Numbered from the stretch's first letter, positions 5,281 through 64,000 are shown. The stretch: DNA of 64,000 nucleotides from Bilabrum cf. latius (GCA_965178125.1 OZ237769.1:1-64000); one strand, 5' to 3'. Notes: generated by a model not told the origin, from the sequence alone. Numbers and translations: made by a program.

Positions 5281-5497
5281 CCCTAACCCTAACCCTAACC
5301 CTAACCCTAACCCTAACCCTAACCCTAACCCTAACCCTAACCCTAACCCTAACCCTAACCCTAACCCTAACCCTAACCCTAACCCTAACCCTAACCCTAA
5401 CCCTAACCCTAACCCTAACCCTAACCCTAACCCTAACCCTAACCCTAACCCTAACCCTAACCCTAACCCTAACCCTAACCCTAACCCTAACCCTAAC
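5281..5497 (+). repeat. Telomeric repeat tract 2 (internal), about 36 units
   Basis: Direct reading of (CCCTAA)n. Confidence 0.99.
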
Positions 5498-6048
5498 TTA
5501 GTGGAGGAGCTGGCCGCGCCATTGACCAGGAGAAGAGGGGAGCAAGTGGCGCAAGGAGTGGAGCAGCAGCATCACTGCCTCGACAGGACTCTGAGGAAGA
5601 TGAAGAGGAGATCGGTGGTCGGTACCACGCAGACGCAGCCGGAGAGGAGGACGAGGATGAAGCTCCGATAGGGCTCGTGCAGCAGGACGAGGAGGATGGG
5701 GACGAGCTGGATGAGGAAGAAGAGAACGAGGCCCAGAACCAGCAAGACGACTCTGAGAACGACGGTGGAGTGGAGGACAACGGCTTCACCGACTAGCAGC
5801 GGCACCTGGTGGACCGCATTCTCACTGCCTGCGATGACACCGCGCTGGGCGTCAGCCGGACTGTCGACGACATGGTCGAGGACGTGCAGGAAACAATTGC
5901 AGAGAGGGACCACGGATTGGGCATGCTCGCAGACCTGATGACGGCCCTCGAGAAGACGGCGGAAGGAGATCTCAATGCGGCAGACGTGGACGCTGTGGAG
6001 GCGCTCCTGGCAGCTGTCGGTGCGGAACCCTCCTCCGATGACGAGTGA
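5497..6048 (+). CDS. C-terminal fragment of an acidic (D/E-rich) protein carried by element A; no start codon
   Basis: The frame is open from the telomere junction: LSGGAGRAIDQEKR...EEDEEE...DNGFTD*(TAG)QRHLVDRILTACDD...AEPSSDDE-TGA. One in-frame TAG, read as Gln. Confidence 0.7.
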
Positions 6049-8830
6049 AAAGCAGCCAGGCGGATGGCAATTGAGGTCAGTGGCAGCTGGGCCAGCTTGT
6101 GAGAGGAGCTTGCCAAAGTGCCAGCCAGTGACCCGTTAGGACGGAATAGTAGGAGCCAAGAGGCATTCTGTTTAGTCTTGGCTGTCAGCCGATGAATACC
6201 TTAAGTCAAAGCAATCCATCAATCGAATACAACGGTCATGTACACAATACCCATTCTACAATTGACGAATCCACAATGCATTCTACAGAGACAAGCAATT
6301 CTTCATCCGGCCATATCGGCGCCGCGCGACAAAAACGGATCCTAATAAAATTTTGCCCCATGTTGTGCCCCAGGACCGACCCAATGCAGTTTGAATCATC
6401 TTCATATCTACTCTGGTTGCCGAGATCTCAATTCCGTATTTTGGTCCACGAAACTCTTCATCCGGCCATATCGGCGCCGCGCGACAAAAACGGATCCTAA
6501 TAAAATTTTGCCCCATGTTGTGCCCCAGGACCGACCCAATGCAGTTTGAATCATCTTCATATCTACTCTGGTTGCCGAGATCTCAATTCCGTATTTTGGT
6601 CCACGAAACTCTTCATCCGGCCATATCGGCGCCGCGCGACAAAAACGGATCCTAATAAAATTTTGCCCCATGTTGTGCCCCAGGACCGACCCAATGCAGT
6701 TTGAATCATCTTCATATCTACTCTGGTTGCCGAGATCTCAATTCCGTATTTTGGTCCACGAAACTCTTCATCCGGCCATATCGGCGCCGCGCGACAAAAA
6801 CGGATCCTAATAAAATTTTGCCCCATGTTGTGCCCCAGGACCGACCCAATGCAGTTTGAATCATCTTCATATCTACTCTGGTTGCCGAGATCTCAATTCC
6901 GTATTTTGGTCCACGAAACTCTTCATCCGGCCATATCGGCGCCGCGCGACAAAAACGGATCCTAATAAAATTTTGCCCCATGTTGTGCCCCAGGACCGAC
7001 CCAATGCAGTTTGAATCATCTTCATATCTACTCTGGTTGCCGAGATCTCAATTCCGTATTTTGGTCCACGAAACTCTTCATCCGGCCATATCGGCGCCGC
7101 GCGACAAAAACGGATCCTAATAAAATTTTGCCCCATGTTGTGCCCCAGGACCGACCCAATGCAGTTTGAATCATCTTCATATCTACTCTGGTTGCCGAGA
7201 TCTCAATTCCGTATTTTGGTCCACGAAACTCTTCATCCGGCCATATCGGCGCCGCGCGACAAAAACGGATCCTAATAAAATTTTGCCCCATGTTGTGCCC
7301 CAGGACCGACCCAATGCAGTTTGAATCATCTTCATATCTACTCTGGTTGCCGAGATCTCAATTCCGTATTTTGGTCCACGAAACTCTTCATCCGGCCATA
7401 TCGGCGCCGCGCGACAAAAACGGATCCTAATAAAATTTTGCCCCATGTTGTGCCCCAGGACCGACCCAATGCAGTTTGAATCATCTTCATATCTACTCTG
7501 GTTGCCGAGATCTCAATTCCGTATTTTGGTCCACGAAACTCTTCATCCGGCCATATCGGCGCCGCGCGACAAAAACGGATCCTAATAAAATTTTGCCCCA
7601 TGTTGTGCCCCAGGACCGACCCAATGCAGTTTGAATCATCTTCATATCTACTCTGGTTGCCGAGATCTCAATTCCGTATTTTGGTCCACGAAACTCTTCA
7701 TCCGGCCATATCGGCGCCGCGCGACAAAAACGGATCCTAATAAAATTTTGCCCCATGTTGTGCCCCAGGACCGACCCAATGCAGTTTGAATCATCTTCAT
7801 ATCTACTCTGGTTGCCGAGATCTCAATTCCGTATTTTGGTCCACGAAACTCTTCATCCGGCCATATCGGCGCCGCGCGACAAAAACGGATCCTAATAAAA
7901 TTTTGCCCCATGTTGTGCCCCAGGACCGACCCAATGCAGTTTGAATCATCTTCATATCTACTCTGGTTGCCGAGATCTCAATTCCGTATTTTGGTCCACG
8001 AAACTCTTCATCCGGCCATATCGGCGCCGCGCGACAAAAACGGATCCTAATAAAATTTTGCCCCATGTTGTGCCCCAGGACCGACCCAATGCAGTTTGAA
8101 TCATCTTCATATCTACTCTGGTTGCCGAGATCTCAATTCCGTATTTTGGTCCACGAAACTCTTCATCCGGCCATATCGGCGCCGCGCGACAAAAACGGAT
8201 CCTAATAAAATTTTGCCCCATGTTGTGCCCCAGGACCGACCCAATGCAGTTTGAATCATCTTCATATCTACTCTGGTTGCCGAGATCTCAATTCCGTATT
8301 TTGGTCCACGAAACTCTTCATCCGGCCATATCGGCGCCGCGCGACAAAAACGGATCCTAATAAAATTTTGCCCCATGTTGTGCCCCAGGACCGACCCAAT
8401 GCAGTTTGAATCATCTTCATATCTACTCTGGTTGCCGAGATCTCAATTCCGTATTTTGGTCCACGAAACTCTTCATCCGGCCATATCGGCGCCGCGCGAC
8501 AAAAACGGATCCTAATAAAATTTTGCCCCATGTTGTGCCCCAGGACCGACCCAATGCAGTTTGAATCATCTTCATATCTACTCTGGTTGCCGAGATCTCA
8601 ATTCCGTATTTTGGTCCACGAAACTCTTCATCCGGCCATATCGGCGCCGCGCGACAAAAACGGATCCTAATAAAATTTTGCCCCATGTTGTGCCCCAGGA
8701 CCGACCCAATGCAGTTTGAATCATCTTCATATCTACTCTGGTTGCCGAGATCTCAATTCCGTATTTTGATGCAAAAAATGAAGATGAAAATATTTTTTCC
8801 TCGACCCTGTCCCTGACTTTATATTAGATA
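5498..8830 (+). mobile_element. Telomere-embedded element family A, copy 2 (longer, still 5'-truncated)
   Basis: Flanked on both sides by CCCTAA tracts; starts mid-ORF with no ATG; same 3' end as copy 1. Confidence 0.7.
6301..8768. repeat. 155-bp tandem array, about 16 copies (second array)
   Basis: Same unit and same copy number as 2751-5218. Confidence 0.98.
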
Positions 8831-9350: not shown

Positions 9351-10154
9351 GTTTCTCCTAACACGAACGCCGGATCAACGCATAGTACCGAGCCTTCCGA
9401 TGCAGTACAAATTTGCTGTAGTACGGAATACAAATGGCTACGCTAGTGCGCAGATACATGCGTACCAACCTATACAATGAACCGCAAGCTTTCTTGAGCT
9501 ATGCAGCTTGCAGCGATGCAAATGCCCCGTCGAACGGCAAGACAGTCCAAGACGAAGTCACCGGGAACCACTCCAAGCAACTTCCACGGCGATGTGTGTT
9601 CCTACTTGGGACCTAAACCATGCTTCTACATCATTCAATCCCTCGAACTTTTCGAATCCTGGCAGCAGTCGGTCGTGTTCCGTAATCAACTGTTGCCAGT
9701 GGCGCCGCGCACACACCCTGAGCCAAAATATCCGTTCAGTGCAACACCCATTGCAACAAGTCTAGGATGGCCAGTGAACATTTTTGCACCATCGATAATG
9801 CGTGCAGTATCGTTAATGAAAAGGACTAGCTCGCATCTATGCGCAAGGTGCTTACACGGTTGGAGCAAGCCCTAACTCGACGGTCCATTCATTGGCAGCA
9901 AGTACCAGTGAGACCAGCTGTTGCACATGCTACAATGGTCCCGTCATGGCTCGCTAACTGATATTAAGTATATACCCGTATAATAACTTTCGCAGATCGC
10001 AGAGGAGAAATTGAGCTTAATCCGCGAGTTCAACCACGACTAGCCAAATCCACCCCGTGAAGTGAGACGTTTTTCATCGGTTTGCATCAACCAGTTACAA
10101 ATTTCAGTTTTCGGCACAAGTGCTACGCTTATAATTTCATGCGCCATCTCACAG

Positions 10155-10577
10155 ATGGATGGTGTCGAGACCCAAGAGATCGAGGACTGTCTCCGCTTGC
10201 TGCAAGTAAAAGCTGCTGACTTCGACAACTTGCTGGCTTCTCTACTCGTGGTGTACGATACACCGAGCGCCAATGCAGAGATCTCCCACAAGACGACCAT
10301 TCAATGGCTGCTGGAATCATCAGACCTACATTCCGATGTATCTTTGGTTGATTGCTGCCAATATGCTCCTCATGATCACCTCCCCGCGCAAGCAGCGCTG
10401 GCAAGCAGGACAGTGGCTCCCTCAGTGCATATTGATGGAGTGAGGTAGCCGTTGGCGGGTCCAACGGAGCACCTGCAGTCGCCAGGCAGTAGCAGCAGTA
10501 ACAGCAGTAACAGCAGTAGCAGCAGTAGCAGCAGTAGCAGCAGTAGCAGCAGTAGCAGCAGTAGCAGCAGTAGCAGT

Positions 10578-10616
<39 letters not shown>

Positions 10617-13600
10617 CGCAGTCTGTCAGGAGGTGCAAGCCAAGCCTCTGGGAGCTCACCAGCCCGTCCTCGCTCATCGAGAAGCGGTGGTCCCAGCAGC
10701 AGCCACAGTCTGTCAGGAGGTGCAAGCCAAGCCTCTGGGAGCTCACCAGCCCGTCCTCGCTCATCGAAGAGCGGTGGTCCCAGCAGCAGCCACAGTCTGT
10801 CAGGAGGTGCAAGCCAAGCCTCTGGGAGCTCACCAGCCCGTCCTCGCTCATCGAGAAGCGGTGGTCGCAGCAGCAGCCGCAGTCTGTCAGGAGGTGCAAG
10901 CCAAGCCTCTGGGAGCTCACCAGCCCGTCCTCGCTCATCGAGAAGCGGTGGTCCCAGCAGCAGCCATAGTCTGTCAGGAGGTGCAAGCCAAGCTTCTGGA
11001 GGTGCATCAGGCCGCATTCTGTCCCGACCAGCACCAGCGTCTGGCCAATAGAGGATGGTGGAGCTGTCACCATCGCAGAGATTCTTAGCAGATATGTGCC
11101 TTGGATTTGCACCATTGCCTCCTGTCCGTAGACAAGGAGCTCGTGCTGCGGCAAGAAAGAAGGCCATTGTTGCGGAGAGTCGATCATCTGGCTAGCCAAT
11201 CCCACCAAGTGCCAGCCGAGGCCTTCCAAGCTCGGCGTCAAGAAGGAGATCGACAAGCAGCACACTTTCGGACCGACCGTAGAGCTTTGCAGCGTTCTAG
11301 GTTCCCCCACTCTCTGACGACATGCCGCTGTCTTGTCACTGTGATTCTGCCTTTGATTTAGATGGATACACTGCACTTGGAGCGGTAGCGTGTTGTACTG
11401 GCACAGGTGAAGATGAGACTTCGAACTACTTCCTGCCTCAAACGTTGGCAAGGCCGCTGGGGCTGGACGGATCGGACCATACACTGCTGGACTGGATCAC
11501 AGATGGCGTTCTAGGCGTCCATGACTCAGATTCGCTGCTTCCGTCGTATACCAGCTTGTCTCAATCGCCTGCTTCTGGCGTGGTAGTTCGAGCGGCACAT
11601 GCCCAGCGCCCACCTGCAGGAGGCTCGATGCGACTAGCATGGTCGTCACACATTGATGGCGGTGATAGCGTCTTCAAGGATGAGCAGACTGCCATGCGAT
11701 GGTCTTCGTTAGAGAAACACGGGGATACCTTGGAGGTTGCGAGCGTGGTGGCCAAGGTGCATGCTCTGCGCCAGCAAAGTCCGCACGGTATTGGTGGCAC
11801 GAACATTCGGGTCCTGGCAGCTGGGGCTTAGGCAGACGTGTCTAGATATAGCAAACACATTGAGTAGCAGTGCAAACGTGAGTACCAGTGGACTCTCGAC
11901 AAAGCTGACAGGGGAGGCTGGTCCTCAGTGCTCCCGCACGCTGGAACCTTGTGGAGTCGGGCCGTGCATCAAGCGTCATCGAGCGGCCAGAGCGATCAAT
12001 AGGCTAATCTACCAAAGCTTCATGTCCTGAGCGGTCTTGCAACTGATATTCACGTTCAGCTTTTCGACGTTGGTGCAGCTACAGTGTCTGTCATGGTGCC
12101 GGGTGGTTTGCTTGCCTTCTGTCGAGACCTGATCGACGCCTTTGAACCTCCTATTAGGTCACTGCAACACACGCTTGATTCTGAAGGGGTTGTGGAACTA
12201 GCAAACGACGAGGGATTCTGGACCCAAGGATCACACATCGATGTCATTCGGAGTTGTTTGCTGTACGTGTTTGGCTCGGGCCTACGAGCTGCTGCCAAGA
12301 AGCTCGATTGGTAGGGACCCGAGCTAGTGATTCGTGTATAGCGCGGAGGTGGGCAAACTGGTGGATTCAAGTCATCTCTCACGCATGTTGCCAGTGGGCG
12401 AGGCCCGTAGACAAGCAGATTCTGGCCCAGTTCTCACACTCGGGACCGTAGTCCATCACGATTTCTGTCAAGTGCATTTCATTGGGTGCGATGCTTGGGG
12501 TATCCTGCTGTTGGTCAGACTGATGTGTCTGACTCCGACTCCGAGTCTGACTCCAGGTCTGACTCCGACTCTGGTGTGAGTGAGGCCACAGAAGCAAGGC
12601 AAGCAGAATCCGTTGCAGTGCTTGGCCGGGACAACTGGCTCTAGGATCAGGACGGCTTGCTGCGGCGCATGGTGCACGTTTCTCACTACAACCGATTCCT
12701 CATGATATTGCTCATGAGGCAGGTGGCAAGATGCTCAGTGTTTTATGTATAGCGAGTCGGCTGCAAGGCTTGCAAGCCGATGTCTCTCTTGCTGCAGGCT
12801 GCACAGCAACAGATGCGCAGAGCAGAGGCAGACATTGCTGCTCAGCAGTCAGCACGGGAGCGCGCTCGACAAGCTGCGATGGATGAAAGCGATGAAGAGG
12901 ACGCCAGAGGACGGAGAGGTGAGTGGTTTGGTCCGACAGGAGATCGCAGTGACGGGACATCAAGGACTCCCACAGGTCCAAGCTCTACAACAGCTGCCAG
13001 CAGCAAGCCAAAGACGCGTGTTGCCAGTCGATAGATGCAGACTGGCGTGGCGCAGGCGCGTGCATGGAGTGGATCTTAGTAGCGTCGAGGTATGCGAGAT
13101 CTTGCGGCCATCATTCATCCGCATGGTCTGCTGACTCCCCAGCAAGACGCAGACATGGCCACGTACTGCAGTTTTGGCGTTGGCTTTGAATTGTGTGGCC
13201 AGCCCTCGCACACAGTAGCAATTCCCAACCCAGCTATGATAAAGTTCATGCACAGCAGTCGTGATGAGCTTTTGCAAGAGGTTGTGCATGGTACGCCGCT
13301 CGAACGGGCTCGGTACGCCGTGGTGCGAGAGGCTACTCGTCCCTACGGGGCACTGGCGTCGGTTGGCGAGTACGCTGGGACATTGCAAGGGAAGCTGCCG
13401 TCTTCTATCTCTTGGGGTGACATCGCTGCAATACACCAGCGTGTACTTGCCAAGGATACCGCGCATGCAACCAGTGACGACGGGGGTATATCGTCCTTCC
13501 TGCCATTTGGCTGCCTGCTGTCGTCGTAGTTGCACGTGTATCAGCCCGGAGCGTTCCGATCCCAATAGCCAAGTCCAGGGACGCACGATTCCGCGCATGA

Positions 13601-16403
13601 TCTATTTCGGCGGCGTGTTCTCTCCAGGCTGCGCCACTCTGCTGAGACAGACGCACAAAGAGCAGTTGCACCCGTTGCGCGAGGTAGAGATGTCGCAGCT
13701 GCTAGTGGAGCACTCGAGACACTGCCAATTCGCAGGCATATACAGTGTGGGCTTCAAACAGCATACGAACAAAGCATGCAAAGGCTGTCGAAAGGCCTGA
13801 AAGGGTCAACGCGAGGCGAATTCGACGTGCCCGCATCAACCATGGCCTTGATGCTGGGCTGCGTGATGCTACCAGCTGAAGCAATCTACTAGCAGCAGCG
13901 CCCTGAGCACCGCGCCTAGACTACTGAAGAGTATTCTGAAGCTCCTTTCGCACGCCATTTCATAGAAGTCGTGCATGACGATGTCATGGAGGACTACATA
14001 CAGTTGGTTTACACTACTTTCAATCGAGCCCTCCAAAGGATCCAGAGGTTGCTTGTGGCATCTGTCTGCGGTTCTGACAGGATTCCGACATTCCAACGTT
14101 CTGCAATGTGGGCGCTAGCGGCATCAATGTCCCGGTGTTGCTTAGAAGGATGGGTGGCTTTACGAACGGATGCATGGTCGCAGGTTGTTGCAGAACAAAC
14201 TGCTGTGACATGGCTACCTGCAACAAGGCCTGTCCTGCGCAACCTTGGACCTGCTACAATTGAGTGGCAGGTCGTCCGCGACTGTCTGCAGTCATCTGGG
14301 TGCATGCCAGAGCAATCTGCTGTTGTTGCAGTCGCAGCAGCAATCGTCGATCAAGTTGCCAGTGCCGTGCATTCCGTTCGCGCTGGGGACGGCCACGGCT
14401 CGCGCCTGAACTCGTGGACGGTTTTAGCCGTATGTGAAATCATAGTTACGTCTTGGAGCCTTTGCGCCGTAGCAGAGTGCAACGGAATGACATGGCAAGT
14501 GGCCAGGAGGTCCACGCAATATGCCCTCTGTGGGCTTGTGTCGGCGCACGATAGCGAGCAGTTTAGGATGGGGATTAGTGGTGTCAATAGCGGGGTCGCA
14601 GGATTTCGCGCAATGGTACGAGCTGACGTTGTGGCGGCCATTCTAGACAAACTTCCTGTTCGGTGCTAGCTAGTCTATGACATGCGGGCGCTGACCGGTA
14701 TCAACGTTGCTATCACGATTGAGATGGAGCTCAGGAAGCTGTATCTGGCACAGTTGCATTTGCCAAAGCTCCACCTACGCAACGGCACACGGAAGGGAAT
14801 GCTAGCAAGGGGTAGTCTGGCTGTAGCACTGTACGGGCAGCTTGTGTCTCGATTGAAGTGCTCGAGGAGCTCGATCTTGGTGGGTCTGAGGTCGTGCATA
14901 TCGAAGACAGCAGTCTGCCCGTACCCCACCGCGGCTGCCATGTGGCGCGGGTCGACGAATGCAGGCAATTTCAGGGCAGATTACGCTACCAAGTCCTCTG
15001 CTCGAGCGTCTGGCCTTCCTGTTGCCGTTCTGACGACAGAGTCCCCAACCATGCAGCGCACGCTTCCTGCGGAATCCTCAGTAAAGACGTCGTATGTCGC
15101 GGCTCTGCTGCGAGCCGTTGTGAGCACCAGGCCGCAAGGACAGCCATCAGTAGCAGACGAGCAGTTCCGCAGCATGCTGTCCCAATGGCTGCTTCCAGCT
15201 TGCGTAATTGGATCTGCAACATTGCTACCAGACCGTATACAGCGAACTTAGCTGCCTGGAATCAAGCGACCGAGAGGTGATCAAGCACCAGACGCGGAGG
15301 ATGGACCGACCGTGGTGGTTGGGCCACCTCCAGCATCCGCATAGCCTGCCGTCATTGTTGCCCAGCGCGTCGAAGAGTTCATGGTGGAGCATGGCAAGTG
15401 GCAGATTCCAAGGTTTGGTGACAAGCAGACGTTTCAGGGAACCTTGAACCGACCAGATGGGTCTCTCAGGCGGGTGATCGATGTATGCTACCATGGCGCA
15501 GGCCTGTGCGTGGACCTGCAAGCAGCTCCATTCACCGTGCCTGCACTTTCGGATGCTCCGTACAACAAGTTGGCGGGCAAGGGAGACCTACGAATCTGCA
15601 TGCAGGACGACTTAAAGATTGTGCATGCTGCTCGCACGGAAGTCGCTCGCATCATTGGCGGTCAGGAACGTCTAAAGAGGATCCACAGATATAGGATATG
15701 GCAGGCAACCAGGGAAAGTTATCCCGCGCTGCCCAACGATACGCCCGATTTGTTCCGGCGTGCTTGCTCTGGTGAAGACATCGGGGCTACCAGCGCATCA
15801 ACGCAGTAGCCTTCAGCATCATTGAGTCCTGTCATGGAGAACCATGCAAGCCAGCAATGGCCCTCCGAACACAGTGATGAAGAGCATGATGAAATGCCGC
15901 GTTCCAAGAAGCGCTTCCGGCGGCCAGACATCCCAATAGCTTCACTGACCGGAACGTCGGGAGCTGTCAGTGACGGTGGTTTCAAGCCTCCGGCAATTGG
16001 CAACTACCAGTCTGGGCGGCCAGCATCCAGTGGAGCTGGGAGTGGTGGTGACGCGTTTACATTGCAGTCGTCACTAGGCATAGACGCAAGGAAACGTGCA
16101 GCATTGGCTGGTCTGGCACCGCCCTAGGGTTCCTCGAGCGGCACCGCAGCAGCACCCAGGGGGATCCAGCGGCTTGCAGCATCTAGCGAGGCAGAAGGAG
16201 CAGACGAGGAGGACGAGCAACGCTTGGCGATATCGCCCGTGTCAAGTTCGAGCCTACGTAGTCATGGCTCAGAAGCGTTGGAGCATGCCTACTCAGGTGC
16301 TCGTGGTGAAGTGGAGACGCTGGTTCCAGGCCATCCGCCGCAATGGATCTCCATTCCAGCCCTCGACGACGTATACTGGGACCATGACACGTATTGGGAT
16401 TGA
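10155..16403 (+). CDS. Orphan protein of about 2,080 aa (TAG read as Gln) with an N-terminal poly-Ser tract and 29-aa repeats; may have additional upstream exons
   Basis: Track ORFs 10062, 10452, 11322, 12084, 12780, 13092, 13971, 14682, 15381 and 15822 are all in one frame. The bridging segments contain only TAG stops (25 counted) and no TAA or TGA until TGA at 16401-16403. Confidence 0.8.
10487..10995 (+). repeat. (AGC/AGT)n microsatellite followed by about 4.3 copies of an 87-bp coding repeat
   Basis: CAGTCTGTCAGGAGGTGCAAGCC... recurs at 10619, 10706 and onward, encoding SLSGGASQASGSSPARPRSSRSGGPSSSH. Confidence 0.95.
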
Positions 16404-19110: not shown

Positions 19111-19132
19111 ACCCTATAATCTAAAACCTAAA

Positions 19133-39209: not shown

Positions 39210-39324
39210 CAGCTCTGAAATTGTAGCTCATTACATCGGGCATGCTTGATCCAAGTGATTGAAAATACTGCATTCTCACTTTATCGATGCACACCCTGGA
39301 AAAATCCACTTTGAGCAGATGCGC

Positions 39325-54338: not shown

Positions 54339-55160
54339 CGATAACCACTTCTGTTGGGAGTAGTCTAGGAGCGCGCGGAGAGCGCCGCTCCGGATCTCGG
54401 ATCTGCGTGGCCAAAATGTGATGCCTGCCTGGCACTGATTTTCGCACCATACACTTCCCCTCATTCGTACGCTGAAATAATTTTTAGGCGAAAGTCATAA
54501 CAGATGGCTTCCGGCGATTCCATGGGAGAGTCGATTGCTGAGCTCGCATCTCAACTTCGAGTGCTGGAGCAGGCTGTCGAAGGTGCTACGTCGGCCCACA
54601 TCAAGTTGCGGACTATCGGCTCCATATCTTCGAACATGTACGGAACGATTTACTAGATATGCGCCTTTTTGTCGCCTGTACTAGCTATTGGCAGGCCTGC
54701 TTGCCGATTCTGAGTTGTCTGCTTTGAACTCGCAGATTCCACTCAACAGACGAAAGAGGGCACAACCAAACAGAAAATACCCAGCGGTCAGGCAAATCAG
54801 TGTAGTCAAGTCGTGGTGGAAGCTGAAAGATATTATACCGCGAGCATTTGATGGGCGCAGCAGGAATATACGTTTTTGAATTGTATACTTGATCGACTGC
54901 CTTTGCTTGAAATCATTATGAGACAGTCACTTACATCTAAACTAGCGTGCTTATAACATTGTATTATTTGGTGGCCAGTCGTGTAGAGCGCTTCAATGCG
55001 ATGCAAGCCTTGCTCTTGAATTTGCCCCAGCGCCCTGGCATTCTTTGTGTGGTACTGCAAGCATAAAAGCGCGCGTGCATTCGCCAATCTGCAACATAAA
55101 TCTCGAATAGCAAGATATCACTCCTTTGTACTCGACACACGCCTTTGTTGACGGATTTCG

Positions 55161-55889
55161 ATGGCGCTGAGGCATTTTGCTGTCGGCGTAGGGAGATACT
55201 CGCAATTGTGGCAACGCCGAACATTCTCGATACCAAGCAATTGGGGCAGTCGGTAGCCGAAGGCATTAAATAATACGTTGGGTCGCAGCGCCGGGAAGGC
55301 TGGCGACGCCCGTCACATACATGGCTTGAAACAGGCCAACAAGTAGCAAGTCAGGCTGCTGTCACTATCCATTTGTACGAGCAAAGTACAGCCCGTTTCG
55401 ACAAGCAGTGCATCTAATCGGCAGAGTTCTGACACCCCGAGTGCACCTGATGCGTCAGAGAGCCGTGAGCAGTCGCAGCTGCAGGCGGCGACAACCAAGC
55501 CACAAGAACCGCAATTGAATGGCTTGCTGGCTGATCGCGATTAGAAAGGCACTTTGGATAATAGAGCCCTTCGGCATGACGATAAACTCTCTGTCGGGGT
55601 GGGATAGGGTGTACTGGAGGGGGCACGGCATGTGGAGGCGAACAGCGGGCAGCGGATGGTGCCTGCGTGGCTGTGTGTGGCCTGGTGCGTGCTGAGCTTT
55701 GCGGTGGGAGGCTGGTTCGGGTACGGGGAGGGGGAGAGAGACACGAAGGCCAAGGCGGGGCGCCTGGTTAGGCACTTGCTCAGGCAGATCCAGGCAGGTG
55801 AGGAGCAAGCTGGGGACCCCATGGCGAGGGAGGAGGCAAGGAGCCAGCAAAGCACTCCCCAGCAAGCTGCCAGCGCCAATTCGCAATAA
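55161..55889 (+). CDS. Hypothetical 242-aa protein with a mitochondrial-presequence-like N-terminus and a C-terminal TM helix
   Basis: MALRHFAVGVGRYSQLWQRRTFS...; 4 in-frame TAGs; TM VPAWLCVAWCVLSFAVGGWFGY; ends at TAA. Confidence 0.55.
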
Positions 55890-56425
55890 GACCAAGTGAC
55901 GTGCAGTTGATATTGTCGCTGCTGGTATCCAACCGGCACCGCAAGGCCAATATTCCATTCGCTATGTACAACCGCTCGGCGCGTGCATAGGGGTGCAGAA
56001 GCTTGGGCATGAGTGCAGCACGTGATGGGACTGGAGCAGGTGGCTTGTTGAACGTTCGAATCGATGGTATACATACTGGGTATGTAAGCCCGGAAGCACC
56101 TGCGACAATGGGCACTGGGCTGTCGGCTGCAGGTAGGTGCCTCTTCGAGTCGGCGTGCCGCTGACCTGTCCCGCCAGGCCCTCCTTTGTCTCGGCCACCA
56201 CCGGCAGCAACCGCCCATCTGTGCCCATCGAATTGCCCCTCGTCTCAACTCATAAACCCCTTATACAGGCGCAGTGCTTGCATGGGGACAGCATCATCAA
56301 CACGCGAAGCCGCGTCCGCTTTGCGCTTGCAATAAATGAAGATGATGATTCTCGGAAGCAAACACGTGGATCCTCTCCAGTTGGTTTTGCCTTGCTTGTC
56401 TGGTGTATTCTTGAACAACACGGCC

Positions 56426-57958
56426 ATGCGGTCCAATCTTATCACCATTGTTGCCCTTGCGGGGCTGCTTGGGGTCACAAATGCCCTGTATGGGTCAAGA
56501 GATGATGTCCAGTCTGTGTCTGGAGCCAAAGACTTCAGGGAGAAGGTCGTGAAGTCGCCGTCCGTTTCGATTGTAGAATTTTATGCCCCCGTGAGTCGAC
56601 TTTACACTTCTTTGTATGCATAGTTGGTATCGGAAGCTCCTCGCAAAGCCCATGTGTGTGCGATCCGCGCATGCCAGCTGGATGCGACTGGTGCCAGTAT
56701 ATCTCGTACGTTAATTGTGCTTCCTTAATCTGGCACATACTTGGTATCACAGTGGTGTGGACATTGCAAGAACGCGGCACCAGAAGTAAAGAAGGCGGCG
56801 AAGGCTTTGAAGGGCGTGGCCAACGTTGTGGCCGTCGATGCCACCGCCAAGGAGAACGAGAGACTGGCTGCAGAGCATGGCGTGCAGGGGTTCCCCACAT
56901 TCCTTGTTTTCGATGGGAGCGGCAAGTCAAAAGGAAAGCCTTACAACGGGGGCAGGTCGGCCAAGGACATCGCTCAGGCAGCCGTGCAAGAGGCGAAGCG
57001 TGCCGTGCAGGCTCGTCTGGGCGGGAAGGCGAAGGCATCGTCTGGTGGGAGCAAGTCCAAGAAGTCCTCCTCGGGTGGGGGCGGCGGTGGGAACCGTCGC
57101 AGCAGCAGCGAGCCCGGCGGGGGCCGGCATGTGGTCACGCTGACGGACTCCAACTTTGACGACCTGGTCATGGGCTCGGACGACCAGTGGATGGTGGAGT
57201 TCTACGCGCCCTGGTGCGGGCACTGCAAGAGCCTGTCCCCCGAGTGGGCCCAGATGGCAGAGGACGTGGAGGGCGAGGTCAAGGTGGGCGCGGTGGACGC
57301 CACGCAGGCGCAGGCGCTGGCACAGAGGTTCGGGGTGAGGGGCTATCCCACCATCAAGATGTTCCCTGCCGGGGCTGGCAAGTCGGATGGCAGCGCAGTG
57401 GACTACAACGGGCCCCGGGAGGCCGCCGGCATGACCCAGTGGGCCCTGCAGCAGCTGGAGAAATCGGGGGGAGGAGGCGCCCCCGTCACCGAGCTGGTGT
57501 CTGACGATGTGCTCCGGTCCAAGTGCAAGGGCAAGAAGATCTGCGTGGTGGCCTTCCTGCCGCACATCCTGGACGACGGCAAGAAGGGCAGAGAGGCGAG
57601 CCTTGCCATGCTGGAGGCCACCGCCAAGGCCCAGCGCAAGAGCCCCGTGCGCTTCCTGTGGACCTCTGCGGGGCAGCACCCCGAGCTGGAGCAGGCTCTG
57701 GGAGTGTCCATGTACCCGGCGGCAGCTGCCGTCAACCTGGCCAAGGGTGCCGGTGCACTGCATGTGGGCACCTTCGACGAGCGAGGCATCGGGTCCTTCG
57801 TGACGGGTGTCATGACAGGCAGGGCACGCACGTCCCCCGCCAAGATCCCCTCGCTCAAGGCCGTGAACCCCTGGGATGGGAAGGAGGGAAAGGCCCCCGC
57901 CATGGACGAGGAGGAGGACGACTTCGACCTCCAGGCCTTCCTCAGCGACGAGGAGTGA
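56426..57958 (+). CDS. PDIA6: Protein disulfide-isomerase, PDIA6/P5 type (a-a-b); intron 56591-56752
   Basis: Signal peptide MRSNLITIVALAGLLGVTNA; VEFYAP|WCGHCK split by a GTGAGT...CAG intron; second EFYAPWCGHCK; P5-type ICVVAFLPHILD and PWDGKEG; ends at TGA. Confidence 0.92.
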
Positions 57959-58150
57959 GCAAAGTGATGTTCGTGGGGAGAGGCAGGTCTCGCATAGACT
58001 ACGGCAGAGGGTATTCGGATAATAGACTACGTGGGGTTCTGGAACTCGGGCTGGCCTTGTACGGCAGGTGTTGCATTGCTTGGGGAACACTGTCGCGTCA
58101 TCTGGCTTGGCGGATCTGTGGTCTTGGTAGTGCACCTACACGATTCAAAA

Positions 58151-60994
58151 TCATTCGATTATATCCTCTAGTTCACCACCCACCACGCTTGCGACCCCTT
58201 CTGACTCCGAGTCACTCGCGAGATCGATGAGCTCTTCTCCCACATCTGCGCTGCCCCGGCTACTCCCTGCGCTGGGGTGGTTGCCACCTCCCGCACTTGC
58301 ATGCAGCTGTCGCAGGAGCCGGCCGATGCGGCCCCCGGCAGCGGGACTCCTTGGAGACCTGGCACCTGCGCCAGCACCCCCGTCCACGACTGCGCCGCCC
58401 CCCTCCCCGCCTGCATCACTGCCCTGGCTCTGACTCAGCAAGTCGACAACGTGCGAGCTGCCAGAGCCAGCGCCTTCTTTGGAACCTTGTGCTGCGCTGC
58501 TAGACGAAGACGAAGACGACGATGACGAAGCTGCCCATCGCTATAGCAGTGATGCCCCACTAGACCCTTGCTAGCTGTGGCTGCCTGCTGCCCCCGTGCC
58601 ACTGTGCCGCTGCTTTGCCAGGATACCACCCAGCCCGGGCATGCGAGGACCCGACACAGATCCGGGGGCAGCACCAGCAGGCGCATCCACGCCCTCGCCC
58701 GACTTGTTGACCGGCTGCATGAAGGTCTCGATGCCCGCCGTGCCCCCAGGGGCCTCGTCCTCGAACTGCAGCTCCGACATCTTGACGCCCATCAGCCGAA
58801 GCCGCAGACCTGCAGCAGCAGGCGTCTGGCCCGCAGACCCCCGACTCTTGGCGACCTCCACGTCGATCTCTTTGTCCAACAGGCGCCGCGCCGCAAGATA
58901 CATCGTGCGCGCATCGTTCGTGTGAGCGGGCAGCTGCACCTACCGCTGCCGCTGCGCAAAATTGGCCCCTTTCAGTTTGATCGTGAGCACGCGACCTCTG
59001 AATGCAAGCCGAGGACCCTGATCCTCAGGGCTGTCAGCGCTCCCGAAGCCCCCCGGGGCCGCAGAAGCCGCACCGGTGGGCAGAAATAGTCGGCTCGTGA
59101 CACTACCATGATCCGAAGCACTAGGCACTGCAGCAGGCGCCTCATCCTATGCGCTTGCCTCGCGACCACTGGAAGGACTATAGCTGGTGTCTTCTGCCCG
59201 GCGCTTCTTTGTGCTTTCACTCGCGCTTATGGCCTTATCTGCGCTGCGGCCCCGCTTCTACCCGACTGCAGCATCGCTTGAGTATCTGCGGCTTGACGTG
59301 GATGCTGGCCCGAAGGCAGCAGCAATTGGCTCAGGACCTTTGCCTGCCTTGCCTTTCAAACCGTCGGTCTGCTGTAAACCCTCCATGCCGTTCTCATAGC
59401 CCCTTGCCTCTGCCAATTTGCCCATACCGTCGCCAATCGCTGGATTCTCTTGCACTCCCTGCGCCTGATCCTGGCCGTGGGTCTCCTTCCTCCCCTGCAT
59501 CTGCGCCGCCAGCGAATGGATGAGCCCGCGCAAGATCACCCGCAGAGCATCGGGCCGTCCCTCGGCTCGGAAGGTCCTCTCCATGCTGATGCTCTTGCGC
59601 CGGCTCTCCTCATCGTCTCGCTCTGCATCGGCCACACCGATCGACCGCCGGGCCAGCGACTCCCGCATGGCCGGCTTCAGCACGCCCCACAAGCGCGGCA
59701 GCTCGCGCTCAAGGTCCTACACAGTGCGCACCCCCTGGCACTCCAGCATCTTCTCCGTCACCCTCCCCACGAAAGGCACCTCGCGGACCCTCTTGCCCTG
59801 CACCCACTGCTTGGATCCTCTCGCGCTGAACGGCACCACGAACTGACCGTCCGGCTTGTTCTCTTCGCTCGCCATCTTGGCAAGCATCGGATTGGGGCCT
59901 GCACCCGCGCTGCACGTCAGGCCAGTCGCTGCCTCCACCCGCCTCCGAATGTCAAGCACCACGGCCCCGATGCGGCGCTCAACGGGCAGCGACGGATCCT
60001 AGGCATCGTGCAGGCGGGGGAGCTCCTCCTCCCTGCGCTGGATCTCAGCAGGCGAGAGAGATGCCAGCGCGGCTCTTCTCGCCGCATCCGCCCCTGAGGG
60101 CGAGCCACTGGTCTCGCCTGGCTTACGGACAGCAGCTGTCTGATCAGAGGCAACCGTAGATCCAGCTTTGACAAGATCACCAGATTGCCCCGTAGATTGC
60201 CCACCAGCAGCAGCGGAAGAAGCGGCAAAGGAAGCAACTGCAGCAGAAGATGTATCGTCATCGTTAGACTGTGGGCCTGCGGCTACTATCGCAGCAGCTT
60301 GATTAGCTGGTGCATCGCATGACGGCGCCTCCGCCGCTCCTGGCATCGACACACCCGTCCGTATGCCCAGCCTCGCGCAGTGCTCGGTGATGTCGAGGTA
60401 AGCCTCGTCCAGGGAGGCAGCCCGCATGCCGGGGTCAAACTACCGATACACTGCCTTGCAGGCTTCAGAAGCCTTGCGGTACTCGTCGAAATCGCTGCGC
60501 ACGAAGACGAGGCTGGGACACAGCCGCTTGGCGATAAAGCCTGGCATTGCTGACCGCACACCAAACTTGCGCGCCGAGTAGGACGCTGTGCTGATCATTG
60601 ACATGCCTCCCACAGCCAAGGGTAGCTTCTCTAGCTTTGGATTATTCCGAATAGCTACTGCGGCAAAGAATTGATCCATGTCAACAACTACCCAGATTCG
60701 ATCCAACCGTCTGCTTGATTCAAGATGCTACATAGTCTTCCTGGCCTAAGCTGCGTGACCCTAAGCTTCATGCCGGGGCATGCGTCTAAGACTATCGTTC
60801 ATCTTTGCGATCGATGCTTCGGTTGATCTGTCCTTCCGTCTTTGCTCATCCCAGTACGAGGATCCCCTTGATGCCTGTTCAATAACTTTGGCTACATGAG
60901 CTTTGTTGACCCCTTCCATACCAGCTTTTTTGTGTGCAAATGGAACTAGGTGAGCTGCGCGTCCATCCTCAGACTTGGTGGCGCTTGCGCGCAT
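58151..60994 (-). CDS. POLK: DNA polymerase kappa (Y-family, DinB-like), 947 aa with TAG read as Gln
   Basis: N-clasp KAGMEGVNKAHVAKVIEQASRGS; VVDMDQFFAAV; STASYSARKFGVRSAMPGFIAKRLCP; SLDEAYLD; GLTCSAG...LAKMAS..NKPDGQF; little finger RKSISMERTF. Single frame with 11 TAGs, ending at TGA. Confidence 0.93.
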
Positions 60995-61284
60995 ATTGTG
61001 GATTTCTAATTCAAAACAGAGGTCTTTCTTGTGATCAACCGCGAGGATATGCACCGGCAAGGGTTCTGTGCATCACAAAACCTATGTATCATACGTCGTA
61101 CTCCAAGAATAGCGGTCCATTCCCTCGGGGCTCCGCAGGAGAGAGACAGAGTGATAGAGAGAATGGCAGAGCAAGGTCCCAGCGAAAATTTTCCGGTTTG
61201 TAGCGTTTAGTTTCACTCAAAATCAGATATCAATAGAACGGTCATGAAACTCCAAGGGGCAACTAACCCTGCGATAAGACAACC

Positions 61285-62732
61285 ATGGCGGGTGCGGAGC
61301 CAAGCATGAGCTCTGTAAGTATCAACTACCCAGGCAGCCTGGGTGTGTGTCGCGAAGCTCAGTATTCAAGCTCCTGGTGCTGTTGCACAAGACTGCCATG
61401 TGCAACTCGAGCTGGTATCGCATGTAGCACTGCCGTATCTGCACTACCCCTCGCTTTTCTTGCAGGATCCGTCTTCAAAACATTTCCGTAGCCGACTGCT
61501 AGCGGCCAAGGAGGCGAGGAAGCTCGCCGAACAAGACGCACAGCTGCTTGCCAACAGGATTGCCCTACTTAAAGCTGAGGAGGAAAGAGCTTGGAAAAAG
61601 ATAGACCAGACCAAGAAAAAGTGAGATCAGTGCTCATTTGCCGTGTAGCATTGGTGCTTCGCAGAGGCAAAAAGTGTGCGCCTGTGACTCCTGGTCTTTG
61701 ATGGTCCTTGCCACAAACCGCGCCGCCATTCGCAGAGCCGGTGAGATTCTTACGTTGCGCAAGGAAAATGAGGAACGATAGGCCGAATAGCGAAGACGGG
61801 CTGCCCTGCAGCGTGAGGCAGACGAGGCTGCTGCCCGGTCGCGAAGAAGTCCGGTGCGAGCCGGCAAGAGCGGCAAGGCCGGGTCCAGGGCGGGGACAGC
61901 GGGGCGCGCCGGGCTTGGAGCCACTGGGAGCAGTTCGGCCGGGACTCGATCCAGGCGGTCGTTGGGCGCCACGGGTGCGGCTGGTGGCCGCGCAGACGCC
62001 GCCGCGGCCAAACGCAAGGCTGTGCAGAAGATGAAGAAGGAGAAGCTGGCCCTCAAGAAGGAGATCGAGAGGGCGAGGGAGGAGGACAGGAAGAGGGCCG
62101 CGGCGGCCAAGGCCAAGATCAGGGCCGAGCAGGAGGCGGCCCGTCGCCGCCGCGAGGAGAAGGCCCGCGAGGAGGCGCGGAGGAGGAAGGAGGCATACGA
62201 GGCAAAGGTCAAGGAGGAGGAGAAGGCCAGGCAGGCCACAGAGGGGAAGGTGGGCGAGCTGGAGAGGCTCGAGATGGAGCTCATAGAGAGGCTCAGATCC
62301 ACTCAGATGCTGCAGCAGCGCGCATATTCGGAGCTAGAAACAGCCCTGGGGGGCACTGCAGCCATGGCTGCCGGGATCACCCCGGGGCAGGGGCATGGAC
62401 AGGGGCAGGGGGCAGGGGCTGGCAGCCCAGCAGGCGAAAGGGGGCCGGGCAGCGCCCGCAGTTCCCCGGGGCGTGGTGCGCCCGTGGATGGGTCTGTGGA
62501 GGGGGGCTCCCGGGCCCCGGCGCACGAGGGCCCTAGCTCGGGGGCGGCGGGGTTTGCGCCTGCCGCAGGTGGGTCCAGCGCTAGGTCCGGCGGCGGGGGA
62601 AGGGGCAGGGGCAGGGGCAGTGGCAGTGGCAGGGGCAGGGGCAGGGCTGGTGGGTCTGCTACGAGGAGGGGTGCCAGTGGTCGAGGGAGGGTTCGATCGA
62701 CTGGGTCAGCGGGGAGGAGGAGGGTCGGGTGA
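61285..62732 (+). CDS. Coiled-coil protein of an uncharacterised protist family; introns 61315-61465 and 61621-61735
   Basis: Spliced frame DAQLLANRIALLKAEEERAWKKIDQTKKK|AGEIL...LERLEMELIERLRSTQMLQQRAYSELE; GT-AG junctions; 2 TAGs; ends TGA TGA. Confidence 0.75.
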
Positions 62733-62831
62733 TGATTGAAACTTGCGCATCGCACCTTGTCGAAATGCAGATCGGATTCTAGCTCGCATTGCACTGCCAG
62801 CGTGGGTCGATCGAGCAAAAAAGTCTAGGCC

Positions 62832-64000
62832 TCAGTCCATGGCATCGATCTCCGCCTGCTGCACCACAGTGCCCTGCACCTGGGCCGGTGCAGCCGCGCT
62901 CTGTGGCTCGGGTACCTGTGCGCTAGAGGCTGCCGCGCTGGCGTGCATCAGCTCTACCAGCGATGGGCCTGTGCTGCCGTGCGATGCACCCTCATCCTCC
63001 TTGCTCTCCAGGTGGGCTCTATCTGGGCCTCCCTCGACCTCCTCGCCCTCCCCCATTTCCCCACGCACGGCCGCGCTAGCCCCCTCTGCTTCCCCACGCC
63101 CCGTGTGCCCAGCCGGAGCAGCTACGCCTTTCGCCCCAGCACCGCTCCCGGCGATCTACTCGCCGTTGAAGGGGTTCACGCGCCGCCCCTCGGCATCCAC
63201 AGCCCTGCCTGACAGTGCCCTGTAGGCCGCAGCTTCGGCATGCGCGTCACGGGAGACACCCGCAGCACCGCCTGCAGCAGCGGTAGAATGCTCCGAATCC
63301 CCCGCCCCGCTGCTGGCACCCGAGCCAGGTGCCGCATCTCCCGCTCTCTTACTTCCCTGCTCCCGCACCCTCCTGCCAGCCTCCTCCGCGGCCTGCAGCG
63401 CCTGCGCCACAGTCACTTTGCCCACCGGTTCCTTGCTCCCGTCATCAAAGGCCACCCCCTCCTCCCTCGCCCGCTCCCTTGCCCGGTCAGCGTCCCCCTC
63501 CAACGAGGCCAGGAAAGCCTCCTGCCTCGCCCGCTCCTCCTCCGCGTCCCTGCCCCTTGCCATCATCTGGGAGAAGGCCTGGAAGCGGCGCTCCTCGGCG
63601 GCCCGCTTCTCCTCTCCCTACCTCAGCCGCTCCAGCCGCTCCGCCTCCAGCGCGGCCTTCGCCCCCCCTTGTTCCATGCCCCTGGCCCAGGCCTCGCACC
63701 GGAGCCGCTCATCATCGAACACCGGCCTGTCGTCCAGAAACTTGAGCCCGGGAAGGCGCGCGATGACCGTTTTGCGATAATTTTTGATGCGCCTGACCAC
63801 TGGGTTGCCCTGCAGGTAGAGCACCCTGAGGGCTGGCAGCTTCTCTAGCACCTCGGGGAGGACGGCGGGGTCGTCGATGTCGTTGTCTTGGATGTCCAGC
63901 ACCGAGATGGTCCTGCACTCAACGACACCAGCCAGGTCCTCAGCCGACTACAGCCCGTTTCTCGCCAGGTTCAGCGTCTCAAGCGATGAGAGACCCTCGA
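62832..64000 (-). CDS. DNAAF1: Dynein axonemal assembly factor 1 (ODA7/LRRC50)-like LRR protein, 3' part
   Basis: LRVLYLQGNPVVRRIKNYRKTVIARLPGLKFLDDRPVFDDERLRCEAWARG matches the DNAAF1/ODA7 LRR-cap; 3 TAGs (63948, 63618, 63156); ends at TGA; 5' part lies outside the window. Confidence 0.85.

What the first reader, a model, noticed from the sequence alone, without database searches (positions are those of the whole stretch)
5497..64000. Nuclear genetic code with TAG reassigned to glutamine
Seen: about 60 in-frame TAGs in nine reading frames that have no frameshifts, including conserved genes. Pol kappa has 11 (HEA*GHAA*ARKTM*HLESSRRLDRIWVVVDMD; AVYR*FDP; GVRTV*DL) and DNAAF1 has 3. The amino acid can be read from the FG-GAP repeats: KSH*KIS (23485) aligns with RSHQKIS and KSQQKIS, and DGG*RRGAVW (23632) aligns with DGGQSRGAVW. 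Established: TAG=Gln corresponds to NCBI table 15 and is known in very few eukaryotic nuclei (e.g. the fornicate Iotanema spirale). Inference: the host looks like a Cafeteria-like flagellate, and I am not aware of this code being described for that group. Standard-code gene calling would shred the whole genome.
Basis: partly seen in the sequence, partly recalled or inferred. Interest (0 to 1): 0.92.

Follow-up and report, generated by a model that had tools for sequence, protein, structure and literature searches.

The report
Flagellate nucleus reads TAG as glutamine
This stretch of a protist chromosome, probably from a distant relative of the flagellate Cafeteria, uses the stop codon TAG as an ordinary glutamine codon, a rare change of the genetic code that I did not find reported for this group.

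Summary
Eight reading frames supported by homology, codon usage, related fragments or spliced contigs carry 57 in-frame TAGs. In seven of them (6602 codons) there are 54 TAG, 0 TAA and 0 TGA, while their +1/+2 frames hold 121 TAG, 42 TAA and 255 TGA.

TAG is neither an error nor edited. Contigs from four runs of four studies match the window with no differences. Two runs hold contigs that lack GT..AG introns, and one such spliced contig carries two TAGs unchanged.

The amino acid is glutamine. A 10-kb syntenic metagenome contig from a relative (L001) also has in-frame TAGs. At 21 sites where one organism has TAG and the other a sense codon, 10 are CAG or CAA. Gln beats the next residue by 22 log-likelihood units. 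One FG-GAP TAG aligns with CAG in all five other repeats.

TAA never occurs in frame. All 13 supported genes end in TGA.

The tRNA and eRF1 could not be examined because no genome is held. A single-gene tree places the organism near Cafeteria. Seven literature searches found no stramenopile with this code.

The parts
5497..6048 (+). Acidic ORF of 183 aa with 1 in-frame TAG (5794-5796); ends in TGA
   Evidence: Highest codon-usage score per codon of all ORFs (0.462). No Pfam family. TAG position.
9987..16403 (+). Single open frame of 2138 aa with 26 in-frame TAGs and no TAA or TGA; lineage-specific protein; ends in TGA
   Evidence: No Pfam, PDB or near-length homologue. Ten related fragments of 32-91% identity were found with residues 600-1799.
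21430..24897 (+). FG-GAP repeat protein with 4 in-frame TAGs (21844, 22414, 23485, 23632); six 69-aa repeats; ends in TGA
   Evidence: Pfam FG-GAP, E 1.8e-41. In the repeat alignment, TAG at 23485 stands against CAG in all 5 other copies. TAG at 23632 stands against CCA, ACT, ACA, CAA, ACT.
24839..26623 (+). EGF-domain membrane protein ORF with 5 in-frame TAGs; ends in TGA
   Evidence: Pfam EGF, E 2.3e-09; TAG positions.
51234..54494 (-). Collar-domain protein of 1086 aa with 5 in-frame TAGs; ends in TGA
   Evidence: Pfam Collar, E 5.9e-13. All 5 TAGs lie in run X5 record 9 (51118-54335), which has 0 differences.
55711..58119 (+). PDIA6-type protein disulfide isomerase gene. Intron 56591-56752 (GT..AG). 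No TAG among its Gln codons (15 CAG, 1 CAA); ends in TGA
   Evidence: Pfam Thioredoxin, E 2.8e-47. The joint 56590->56753 is seen in X5 and X9 contigs. The spliced frame was read; codon counts are.
58151..61072 (-). DNA polymerase kappa (Y family) with 11 in-frame TAGs; ends in TGA
   Evidence: Pfam IMS, E 3.1e-41, and IMS_C. Human Pol kappa structures match at E 4e-72, with alignment running across the TAGs. All 11 TAGs lie in X5 record 13 and X6 record 19, each with 0 differences.
61104..62732 (+). Coiled-coil protein gene with two GT..AG introns (61315-61465, 61621-61735) and 2 in-frame TAGs (61779, 61788); ends in TGA TGA
   Evidence: Joints seen in X5 and X9. X9 record 25 spans both joints and carries both TAGs with 0 differences. 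Both TAGs align with CAG in L001.
62832..63998 (-).
   Evidence: Pfam LRR_4, LRR_8, LRR_9. TAG positions. Two of the 3 TAGs align with CAG in L001.

Best explanation
This is nuclear DNA of a protist with telomere repeats and spliceosomal introns, probably a stramenopile distantly related to Cafeteria. Its cytoplasmic translation reads UAG as glutamine. TAG makes up about 17% of glutamine codons in the seven counted genes (54 of 317). It is absent from the PDI gene. UGA is the working stop codon, and UAA is not a sense codon. Shown here: TAG is in frame in conserved genes, it is kept in spliced transcript-type contigs, it corresponds to Gln, and at least one related organism (L001) shares the trait. 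Inferred from established cases (Panek et al. 2017, PMC5304391, section 9, read in full): a tRNA-Gln with anticodon CUA does the decoding. That is the only anticodon that pairs with UAG but not UAA, and it is one base away from the tRNA-Gln(CUG) anticodon. The release factor eRF1 has probably lost or weakened its recognition of UAG. Neither the tRNA nor eRF1 could be looked at.
For: (1) Only TAG is involved: 54 TAG, 0 TAA and 0 TGA in 6602 in-frame codons, against 121, 42 and 255 in the +1/+2 frames of the same genes. Five ORFs reach 800 aa only when TAG is sense. (2) Homology runs across the TAGs: pol kappa against human structures and Pfam domains. (3) It is not an error and not edited. No differing letters were listed for runs X1, X5, X6 and X9, which come from 4 studies. 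X5 and X9 hold contigs that skip four GT..AG intervals which X1 and X6 do not skip. Twenty-one TAGs lie in X5/X9 records with 0 differences, two of them on a record that spans two introns. (4) Amino acid identity. Against the syntenic L001 orthologues (PDI, pol kappa, coiled-coil, LRR), residues opposite TAG are Q x10, A x3, E x2, T x2 and D, I, K, R once each, plus one TAG-TAG pair. Log-likelihood is -47.5 for Q and -69.8 for A. Ordinary Q is conserved at 0.53 in the same alignments. Fragments of relatives give Q at 5 of 11 TAG sites of the large ORF. One FG-GAP repeat column has TAG against CAG x5. (5) The trait is shared. L001 has 11 in-frame TAG and 0 TAA or TGA in 2262 codons. Fragments P0246 and P0255 end exactly at this window's TAG sites. 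(6) Stops: 9 supported window genes and 4 L001 genes all end in TGA. (7) TAA is not Gln. The CAA share of CAR codons is 0.285, so 54 TAG with 0 TAA has probability 1.3e-08 if TAA were used in proportion.
Against: No tRNA gene lies in the window or in L001, and no genome is held, so the decoding machinery is unseen. The 120-sequence pol kappa alignment taken alone favoured Ala (posterior 0.998), driven by one column. The control on known codons showed the method recovers Gln from CAG in only 29.5% of samples of 7 columns. Eleven of the 21 ortholog sites are not Gln. ORFs were delimited by TAA and TGA, so '0 TAA in frame' is partly by construction, although gene lengths match their orthologues. 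Run X5 is labelled 'RNA? (probably DNA)' by the tool, so its RNA nature is my inference from the spliced joints. There is no peptide evidence.
Confidence: 0.92

Rival explanations
1. TAG is a sense codon but stands for an amino acid other than glutamine, such as Ala, Ser or Glu, as in the UAG=Leu, UAG=Ser and UAG=Glu codes of other protists.
For: The column likelihood from the pol kappa family alone ranked Ala first. In L001, 3 of the 21 sites are Ala and 2 are Glu. In the fragments of relatives, 2 of 11 sites are Ser.
Against: In the ortholog likelihood Gln beats Ala by 22 log units and Ser by 23. Ten of the 21 sites are CAG or CAA, which equals the conservation rate of true Gln. The FG-GAP column has TAG against CAG x5. 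The pol kappa-only test is underpowered by its own control. At the column that drove the Ala result, the closest homologues P0005 and P0014, and L001, have Gln.
Confidence: 0.03
2. Both TAA and TAG are reassigned (table 6 type) with TAA merely rare in a GC-rich genome, or TAG has a dual, context-dependent meaning as both sense and stop, as in Condylostoma or Blastocrithidia.
For: TAA was never seen as a stop in any of the 13 genes, so its meaning is not directly shown. TAA is the rarest of the three trinucleotides (0.35 of expectation).
Against: There are 0 TAA against 65 TAG in 8864 in-frame codons of two organisms, although CAA is 23-29% of CAR codons. No gene ends in TAG (0 of 13). Every gene ends in TGA at a length that matches its orthologue.
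Confidence: 0.04
3. The TAGs are true stops: the genes are pseudogenes, or the TAGs are systematic C>T assembly or sequencing errors at CAG.
For: TAG is one transition away from CAG. The left part of the window shows signs of misassembly (a bacterial gene joined to telomere repeats).
Against: Decay would also add TGA and TAA, yet the in-frame counts are 0 and 0 against 54 TAG. Contigs from runs of four studies show no differences. A relative has its own TAGs at other sites, in the same genes and in the same gene order.
Confidence: 0.005
4. TAG is removed before translation by RNA editing (U to C) or by small introns.
For: None was found. The genes do contain introns of 98-162 nt.
Against: X9 record 25 lacks two introns and still carries TAG at 61779 and 61788. 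X5 records cover all TAGs of pol kappa (11), the Collar protein (5) and the LRR protein (3) with 0 differences and no joints at those sites.
Confidence: 0.005

Closest known systems
Iotanema spirale (Fornicata) nuclear code: UAG = Gln, with UAA and UGA as stops (Panek et al. 2017, PMC5304391; abstract and section 9 read)
   Same: Only UAG is reassigned, it is reassigned to glutamine, and UAA is not a sense codon. The meanings of UAG and UAA are therefore decoupled.
   Different: It belongs to an unrelated supergroup, Metamonada. In Iotanema UAA is the primary stop (abstract), whereas here all 13 genes examined end in UGA and none in UAA. Iotanema was known from a transcriptome only. Here genomic DNA with introns and telomere repeats is in hand.
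Ciliates with UAG-only = Gln: Protocruzia tuzeti and two phyllopharyngean lineages (McGowan et al. 2024, PMC11687900; Discussion passages read)
   Same: The same codon takes the same amino acid while UAA keeps its meaning. These are cases of independent origin.
   Different: Ciliates are alveolates with many code variants, and the pol kappa tree does not put this window among them. The window has conventional chromosome features: TTAGGG-type telomere repeats and GT..AG introns of 98-162 nt.
UAR = Gln codes (NCBI table 6 type): many ciliates, hexamitid diplomonads, oxymonads, ulvophyte green algae, Amoeboaphelidium (listed in PMC11687900)
   Same: A stop codon is reassigned to glutamine, presumably through a mutated tRNA-Gln.
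   Different: Those organisms also read TAA as Gln. Here TAA is absent from 8864 in-frame codons while TAG occurs 65 times.
Cafeteria roenbergensis / C. burkhardae (bicosoecid stramenopile), the closest named relative by pol kappa
   Same: It is the best named pol kappa hit (52% identity over 40% of the query). It groups with window + L001 at SH-aLRT 93 in a single-gene tree.
   Different: Its pol kappa proteins are deposited as uninterrupted models of 598-653 aa. That is consistent with the standard code, although I did not test this directly.

Membership tests
Nuclear code of NCBI table 15 type (UAG = Gln; UAA and UGA stop) | In-frame TAG, and only TAG, in conserved protein-coding genes | tested here: met
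   54 TAG, 0 TAA and 0 TGA in 6602 codons. Pfam and PDB homology runs across the TAGs.
Nuclear code of NCBI table 15 type (UAG = Gln; UAA and UGA stop) | TAG positions correspond to glutamine in homologues | tested here: met
   10 of 21 ortholog sites are CAG or CAA, and Gln leads the likelihood by 22 log units. 5 of 11 sites are Gln in fragments of relatives. In the FG-GAP repeats TAG stands against CAG x5.
Nuclear code of NCBI table 15 type (UAG = Gln; UAA and UGA stop) | TAG is present in the mature mRNA (not edited, not spliced out) | tested here: met
   Intron-less contigs of runs X5 and X9 carry the TAGs with 0 differences. That these runs are RNA is inferred from the spliced joints, not from their records.
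Nuclear code of NCBI table 15 type (UAG = Gln; UAA and UGA stop) | UGA terminates genes | tested here: met
   13 of 13 supported genes (9 in the window, 4 in L001) end in TGA, often with a second in-frame TGA within 1-3 codons.
Nuclear code of NCBI table 15 type (UAG = Gln; UAA and UGA stop) | UAA still terminates genes | tested here: inconclusive
   TAA is never in frame (0 in 8864 codons), but no gene among the 13 ends in TAA.
Nuclear code of NCBI table 15 type (UAG = Gln; UAA and UGA stop) | A tRNA-Gln with anticodon CUA | not testable with these tools
   ARAGORN finds no tRNA in the window or in L001. No genome is held.
Nuclear code of NCBI table 15 type (UAG = Gln; UAA and UGA stop) | eRF1 altered in its stop-recognition motifs (GTS, NIKS, YxCxxxF) | not testable with these tools
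   eRF1 is encoded neither in the window nor in L001. The motifs are named from PMC5304391 section 9.
UAR = Gln code (NCBI table 6 type) | TAA is also used as a glutamine codon | tested here: not met
   0 TAA against 54 TAG in the window genes, although CAA is 28.5% of CAR codons (P = 1.3e-08 under proportional use). In L001 the counts are 0 against 11.
Context-dependent dual-meaning stop codons (Condylostoma / Blastocrithidia type) | The reassigned codon also ends genes | tested here: not met
   0 of 13 genes end in TAG. The sample is small.
Bicosoecida / Cafeteria-like stramenopile (host identity) | Phylogenetic placement with named bicosoecids | tested here: inconclusive
   In a single-gene pol kappa tree, window + L001 sit on a long branch (1.42) next to two unnamed sequences and a clade holding Cafeteria (SH-aLRT 93). 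The best named PDI hits are oomycetes and ochrophytes at 44-48% identity. No rRNA gene is in the window.

The most novel reading that the evidence does not exclude
A whole clade of heterotrophic stramenopile flagellates has turned UAG into a glutamine codon and uses UGA as its only working stop, with UAA left virtually unused. Members seen here are the window organism, a strain with 98% identical PDI, the L001 organism and more distant fragment donors. This would be the first nuclear code change in stramenopiles. Such cells are the kind of host predicted for the giant viruses that read TAG as glutamine and keep TAA and TGA as stops, which were noted elsewhere in this scan with 'unknown host'.
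Probability: 0.15. Interest if true: 0.9.

Novelty: new member of a known kind. Interest (0 to 1): 0.75.

Why it matters
Changes of the nuclear genetic code are rare, and cases where UAG changes while UAA does not are rarer still. The 2024 paper I read lists Iotanema, Protocruzia and two phyllopharyngean ciliate lineages for UAG = Gln.

A further independent case would add a data point on how UAG and UAA can be decoupled. It comes from a different supergroup and from an organism with genomic and transcript-type data in public runs from four studies. It would also offer a system in which the predicted tRNA-Gln(CUA) and the eRF1 change can be found and tested.

There is a practical consequence. 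Standard-code gene calling breaks these genes into pieces. The public protein collection holds relatives of the 2138-aa protein only as fragments of 43-364 aa.

The finding also offers a candidate type of host for giant viruses that read TAG as glutamine (earlier notes of this scan). That link is not tested.

Tried and rejected
- **Genome and RNA genes.** No whole genome is held, so tRNA, eRF1 and genome-wide inference were impossible. ARAGORN found no tRNA in the window or in L001. Rfam gave no match at gathering score in the window.
- **Pol kappa columns alone.** A Codetta-style column likelihood on the 120-sequence pol kappa alignment gave Ala. I rejected it as underpowered. On known codons it was 85.5% accurate on average but only 29.5% accurate for CAG with 7 columns.
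- **Large ORF.** A search for near-length homologues of the 2138-aa ORF, using residues 440-2138, found none. The PDB held none either.
- **Exact look-up.** Ten ATG-started standard-code fragments of the window's genes were looked up, and none is in the collection.
- **Collection scans.** A genome-contig scan with PDI found no relative. Viral-contig scans with the Collar protein and with pol kappa found no relative, so no link to viruses is shown.
- **Sequencing runs.** No RNA holder was listed. Parts of the stretch had no cover in X6 and X9.
- **Earlier notes of this scan.** Searches by place, by sequence and by a long word list returned nothing.
- **Not pursued.** I did not test whether the FG-GAP and EGF ORFs form one gene, or whether the TGA between ORFs 35928-36989 and 34260-35927 lies in an intron.
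- **Supplements.** Supplementary files of the papers were not opened. The eRF1 alignment and codon tables of PMC5304391 may hold details relevant to the mechanism.
Full report
**What the window is.** From about 9.9 kb onward the window is GC-rich (0.53-0.63) eukaryotic nuclear DNA. It holds TTAGGG-type telomere repeats. It has GT..AG introns of 98-162 nt that are missing from some public contigs. Its genes are typically eukaryotic: a Y-family DNA polymerase kappa, a PDIA6-type disulfide isomerase, an LRR protein, and FG-GAP and EGF proteins. No whole genome is held for it. It contains no tRNA gene and no Rfam family at gathering score.

**Checking the observation.** Under the standard code the window has 2 ORFs of 500 aa or more. 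With TAG read as sense it has 11. Five of those reach 800 aa or more (2138, 1155, 1086, 973 and 844 aa), against one such ORF under the standard code, one with TAA as sense and one with TGA as sense.

Eight frames supported by homology, codon usage, related fragments or spliced contigs hold 57 in-frame TAGs. Three further long ORFs without support add 7.

In seven genes totalling 6602 in-frame codons there are 54 TAG, 0 TAA and 0 TGA. The +1 and +2 frames of the same genes hold 121 TAG, 42 TAA and 255 TGA. Decay or chance would not spare TGA and TAA in this way.

The name 'DNAAF1' rests on nothing I ran, since Pfam sees only LRR families.

**Not an error, not edited, not spliced out.** I laid Logan contigs of four runs from four studies on 51000-64000.
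- No differing letters and no indels were listed for any run.
- X1 covers the stretch at an even depth of about 19 with its introns in place, so it behaves like genomic DNA.
- X5 and X9 have very uneven depth. They hold contigs that skip four intervals bounded by GT..AG (54637-54736, 56590-56753, 61314-61466, 61620-61736). Three of these are skipped in both runs. X1 and X6 show none of these joints.
- I infer that X5 and X9 contain cDNA-type sequence, although the tool labels X5 'RNA? (probably DNA)'.
- X5 records cover all 11 TAGs of pol kappa, all 5 of the Collar protein and all 3 of the LRR protein with 0 differences.
- X9 record 25 spans two introns of the coiled-coil gene and carries its two TAGs (61779, 61788) unchanged.
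- X6, from a different study, covers all 11 pol kappa TAGs with 0 differences.

**Which amino acid: the first attempt was weak.** I aligned pol kappa with 120 homologues. The TAG columns are variable. A column likelihood on 7 columns gave Ala (posterior 0.998), driven by one column. The same procedure on known codons was right in 85.5% of trials on average but in only 29.5% for CAG, so it cannot decide for Gln. At the column that drove the result, the closest homologues P0005 and P0014 have Gln.

**Which amino acid: close relatives settle it.** The PDI search showed that the public collection holds close relatives, at 98% and 77-78% identity. A metagenome contig of 10,272 bases, L001, carries the 78% PDI. 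L001 is syntenic with the window: it has PDI, pol kappa, the coiled-coil gene and the LRR gene in the same order and orientation. It has its own in-frame TAGs, 11 in 2262 codons, and no TAA or TGA.

I aligned the four gene pairs with TAG masked as X, so that the alignment could not favour Gln.
- The window's 16 aligned TAGs face CAG x6, TAG x1, GCG x2, ACT x2, and GAG, GCT, GAC, ATC and AAA once each.
- L001's 7 aligned TAGs face CAG x3, CAA x1, TAG x1, CGG and GAA.
- Leaving out the TAG-TAG pair, 10 of 21 sites are Gln. Ordinary Gln codons are conserved at 0.53 in the same alignments.
- Using substitution frequencies taken from these alignments, the log-likelihood is -47.5 for Gln, -69.8 for Ala and -70.3 for Ser.

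**Two independent lines agree.**
- A search of 1.84 billion representative proteins with residues 600-1799 of the orphan 2138-aa ORF returned 10 fragments of 43-364 aa at 32-91% identity. At 11 of this ORF's TAG sites that these fragments cover, they show Q x5, S x2, and P, E, H and N once each. Three of those alignments are weak.
- P0246 ends exactly before one of the window's TAG sites and begins two residues after another. P0255 ends exactly before a third. This is what one expects if those organisms have TAG at the same places.
- In the six FG-GAP repeats, the TAG at 23485 stands against CAG in all five other copies. The TAG at 23632 stands against CAA in the most similar copy, and against CCA, ACT, ACA and ACT in the others.

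**The other two stop codons.** All nine supported window genes and the four L001 orthologues end in TGA. A second in-frame TGA often follows within one to three codons. None ends in TAG or TAA.

TAA is absent from 8864 in-frame codons of the two organisms, while TAG occurs 65 times. With CAA at 28.5% of CAR codons, 54 TAG and 0 TAA has probability 1.3e-08 if TAA were a proportionally used Gln codon. So UAG and UAA are decoupled, as in table 15. Whether UAA still works as a stop is open. One caveat applies: the ORFs were delimited by TAA and TGA, so the zero is partly by construction. Against that, gene lengths agree with their orthologues.

**Mechanism.** Shown here: UAG is a sense codon in mature transcripts, and it corresponds to Gln. 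It accounts for 54 of 317 Gln codons in the seven counted genes, and for 0 of 16 in the PDI gene.

Inferred: a tRNA-Gln(CUA) does the decoding. According to Panek et al. 2017 (PMC5304391, section 9), CUA is the only anticodon that reads UAG but not UAA. It is one mutation away from the anticodon of tRNA-Gln(CUG). Codes of this kind usually come with changes in the N-domain of eRF1. Neither molecule could be examined here.

**Who it is.** The best named pol kappa hit is Cafeteria roenbergensis, at 52% identity over 40% of the query. In a quick maximum-likelihood tree of 39 rows I chose from the 120 hits plus L001, window and L001 are sisters (SH-aLRT 100) on a long branch. They sit next to two unnamed sequences (89), and then next to a clade that holds Cafeteria (93). 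Named PDI hits are oomycetes and ochrophytes at 44-48% identity. A stramenopile, perhaps bicosoecid-related, is therefore the best guess. It rests on a single gene.

**Comparison with what is known.** According to passages of McGowan et al. 2024 (PMC11687900), UAG-only = Gln is known from Iotanema spirale, Protocruzia tuzeti and two phyllopharyngean ciliate lineages. UAG-only = Leu and UAG-only = Ser occur in a rhizarian and in Scotinosphaera.

Seven full-text searches found no nuclear code change reported for any stramenopile. In a 2024 review of stramenopiles (PMC11412368), the terms 'genetic code' and 'codon' occur only in the reference list. The library lacks most subscription journals, so this is not proof of absence.

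I therefore file the finding as a new member of a known kind. It differs from Iotanema in that UGA, not UAA, is the stop seen.

**A lead, not evidence.** Earlier notes of this scan describe giant viruses that read TAG as Gln, keep TAA and TGA as stops, and have an unknown host. A flagellate clade with that code is the sort of host they would need. My two scans of viral contigs with window proteins found nothing.

Noticed in passing
window 293-1666 (minus strand), abutting the telomere repeat at 1667: An AT-rich ORF read under the standard code carries a CHU_C type IX secretion signal domain and a Laminin_G_3 domain. This is a bacterial, Bacteroidota-type protein. It is joined directly to (TAACCC)n, so the left end of the window looks like a chimeric join of bacterial and protist DNA.
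   Followed up: partly
window 1667-2458, 5280-5497, 8830-9350, 18598-19116: Four internal arrays of the telomere repeat lie in the same orientation. They are separated by two blocks of about 16 perfect copies of a 155-bp satellite (2750-5218 and 6300-8768) and are followed by a 77-bp satellite (19133-20394). This is either a stacked subtelomere or several chromosome ends concatenated by the assembler.
   Followed up: partly
window and L001 gene ends: All 13 supported genes end in TGA. Several have a second in-frame TGA 1-3 codons downstream: TGA TGA in the coiled-coil gene, TGA TTT TGA in pol kappa, TGA GCA AAG TGA in PDI, and TGA AGA TGA in the L001 coiled-coil gene. This may be a back-up for a single leaky stop codon.
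   Followed up: no
window 35928-35930, between ORFs 35928-36989 and 34260-35927 (minus strand): Two long ORFs lie in the same frame and are separated by a single TGA. It could be an unrecognised intron, two adjacent genes, or read-through.
   Followed up: no
window 24834-24897: The end of the FG-GAP ORF and the start of the EGF ORF overlap in different frames. Both encode the same Ser/Thr-rich motif just there, which suggests one gene joined by an intron, or a frameshift.
   Followed up: no
window 56753-57955 compared with the other genes: The PDI gene, which had the highest summed contig depth in the transcript-type runs, has no TAG among its 16 Gln codons. The large ORF and pol kappa use TAG for 21-24% of Gln codons. 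TAG may be a disfavoured Gln codon in highly expressed genes.
   Followed up: no
window 28271-30302 and 43000-50700: These are families of long direct repeats (39-, 232-, 271-, 277- and 305-bp units) with open frames but no Pfam family. They are probably non-coding or mobile repeats.
   Followed up: no
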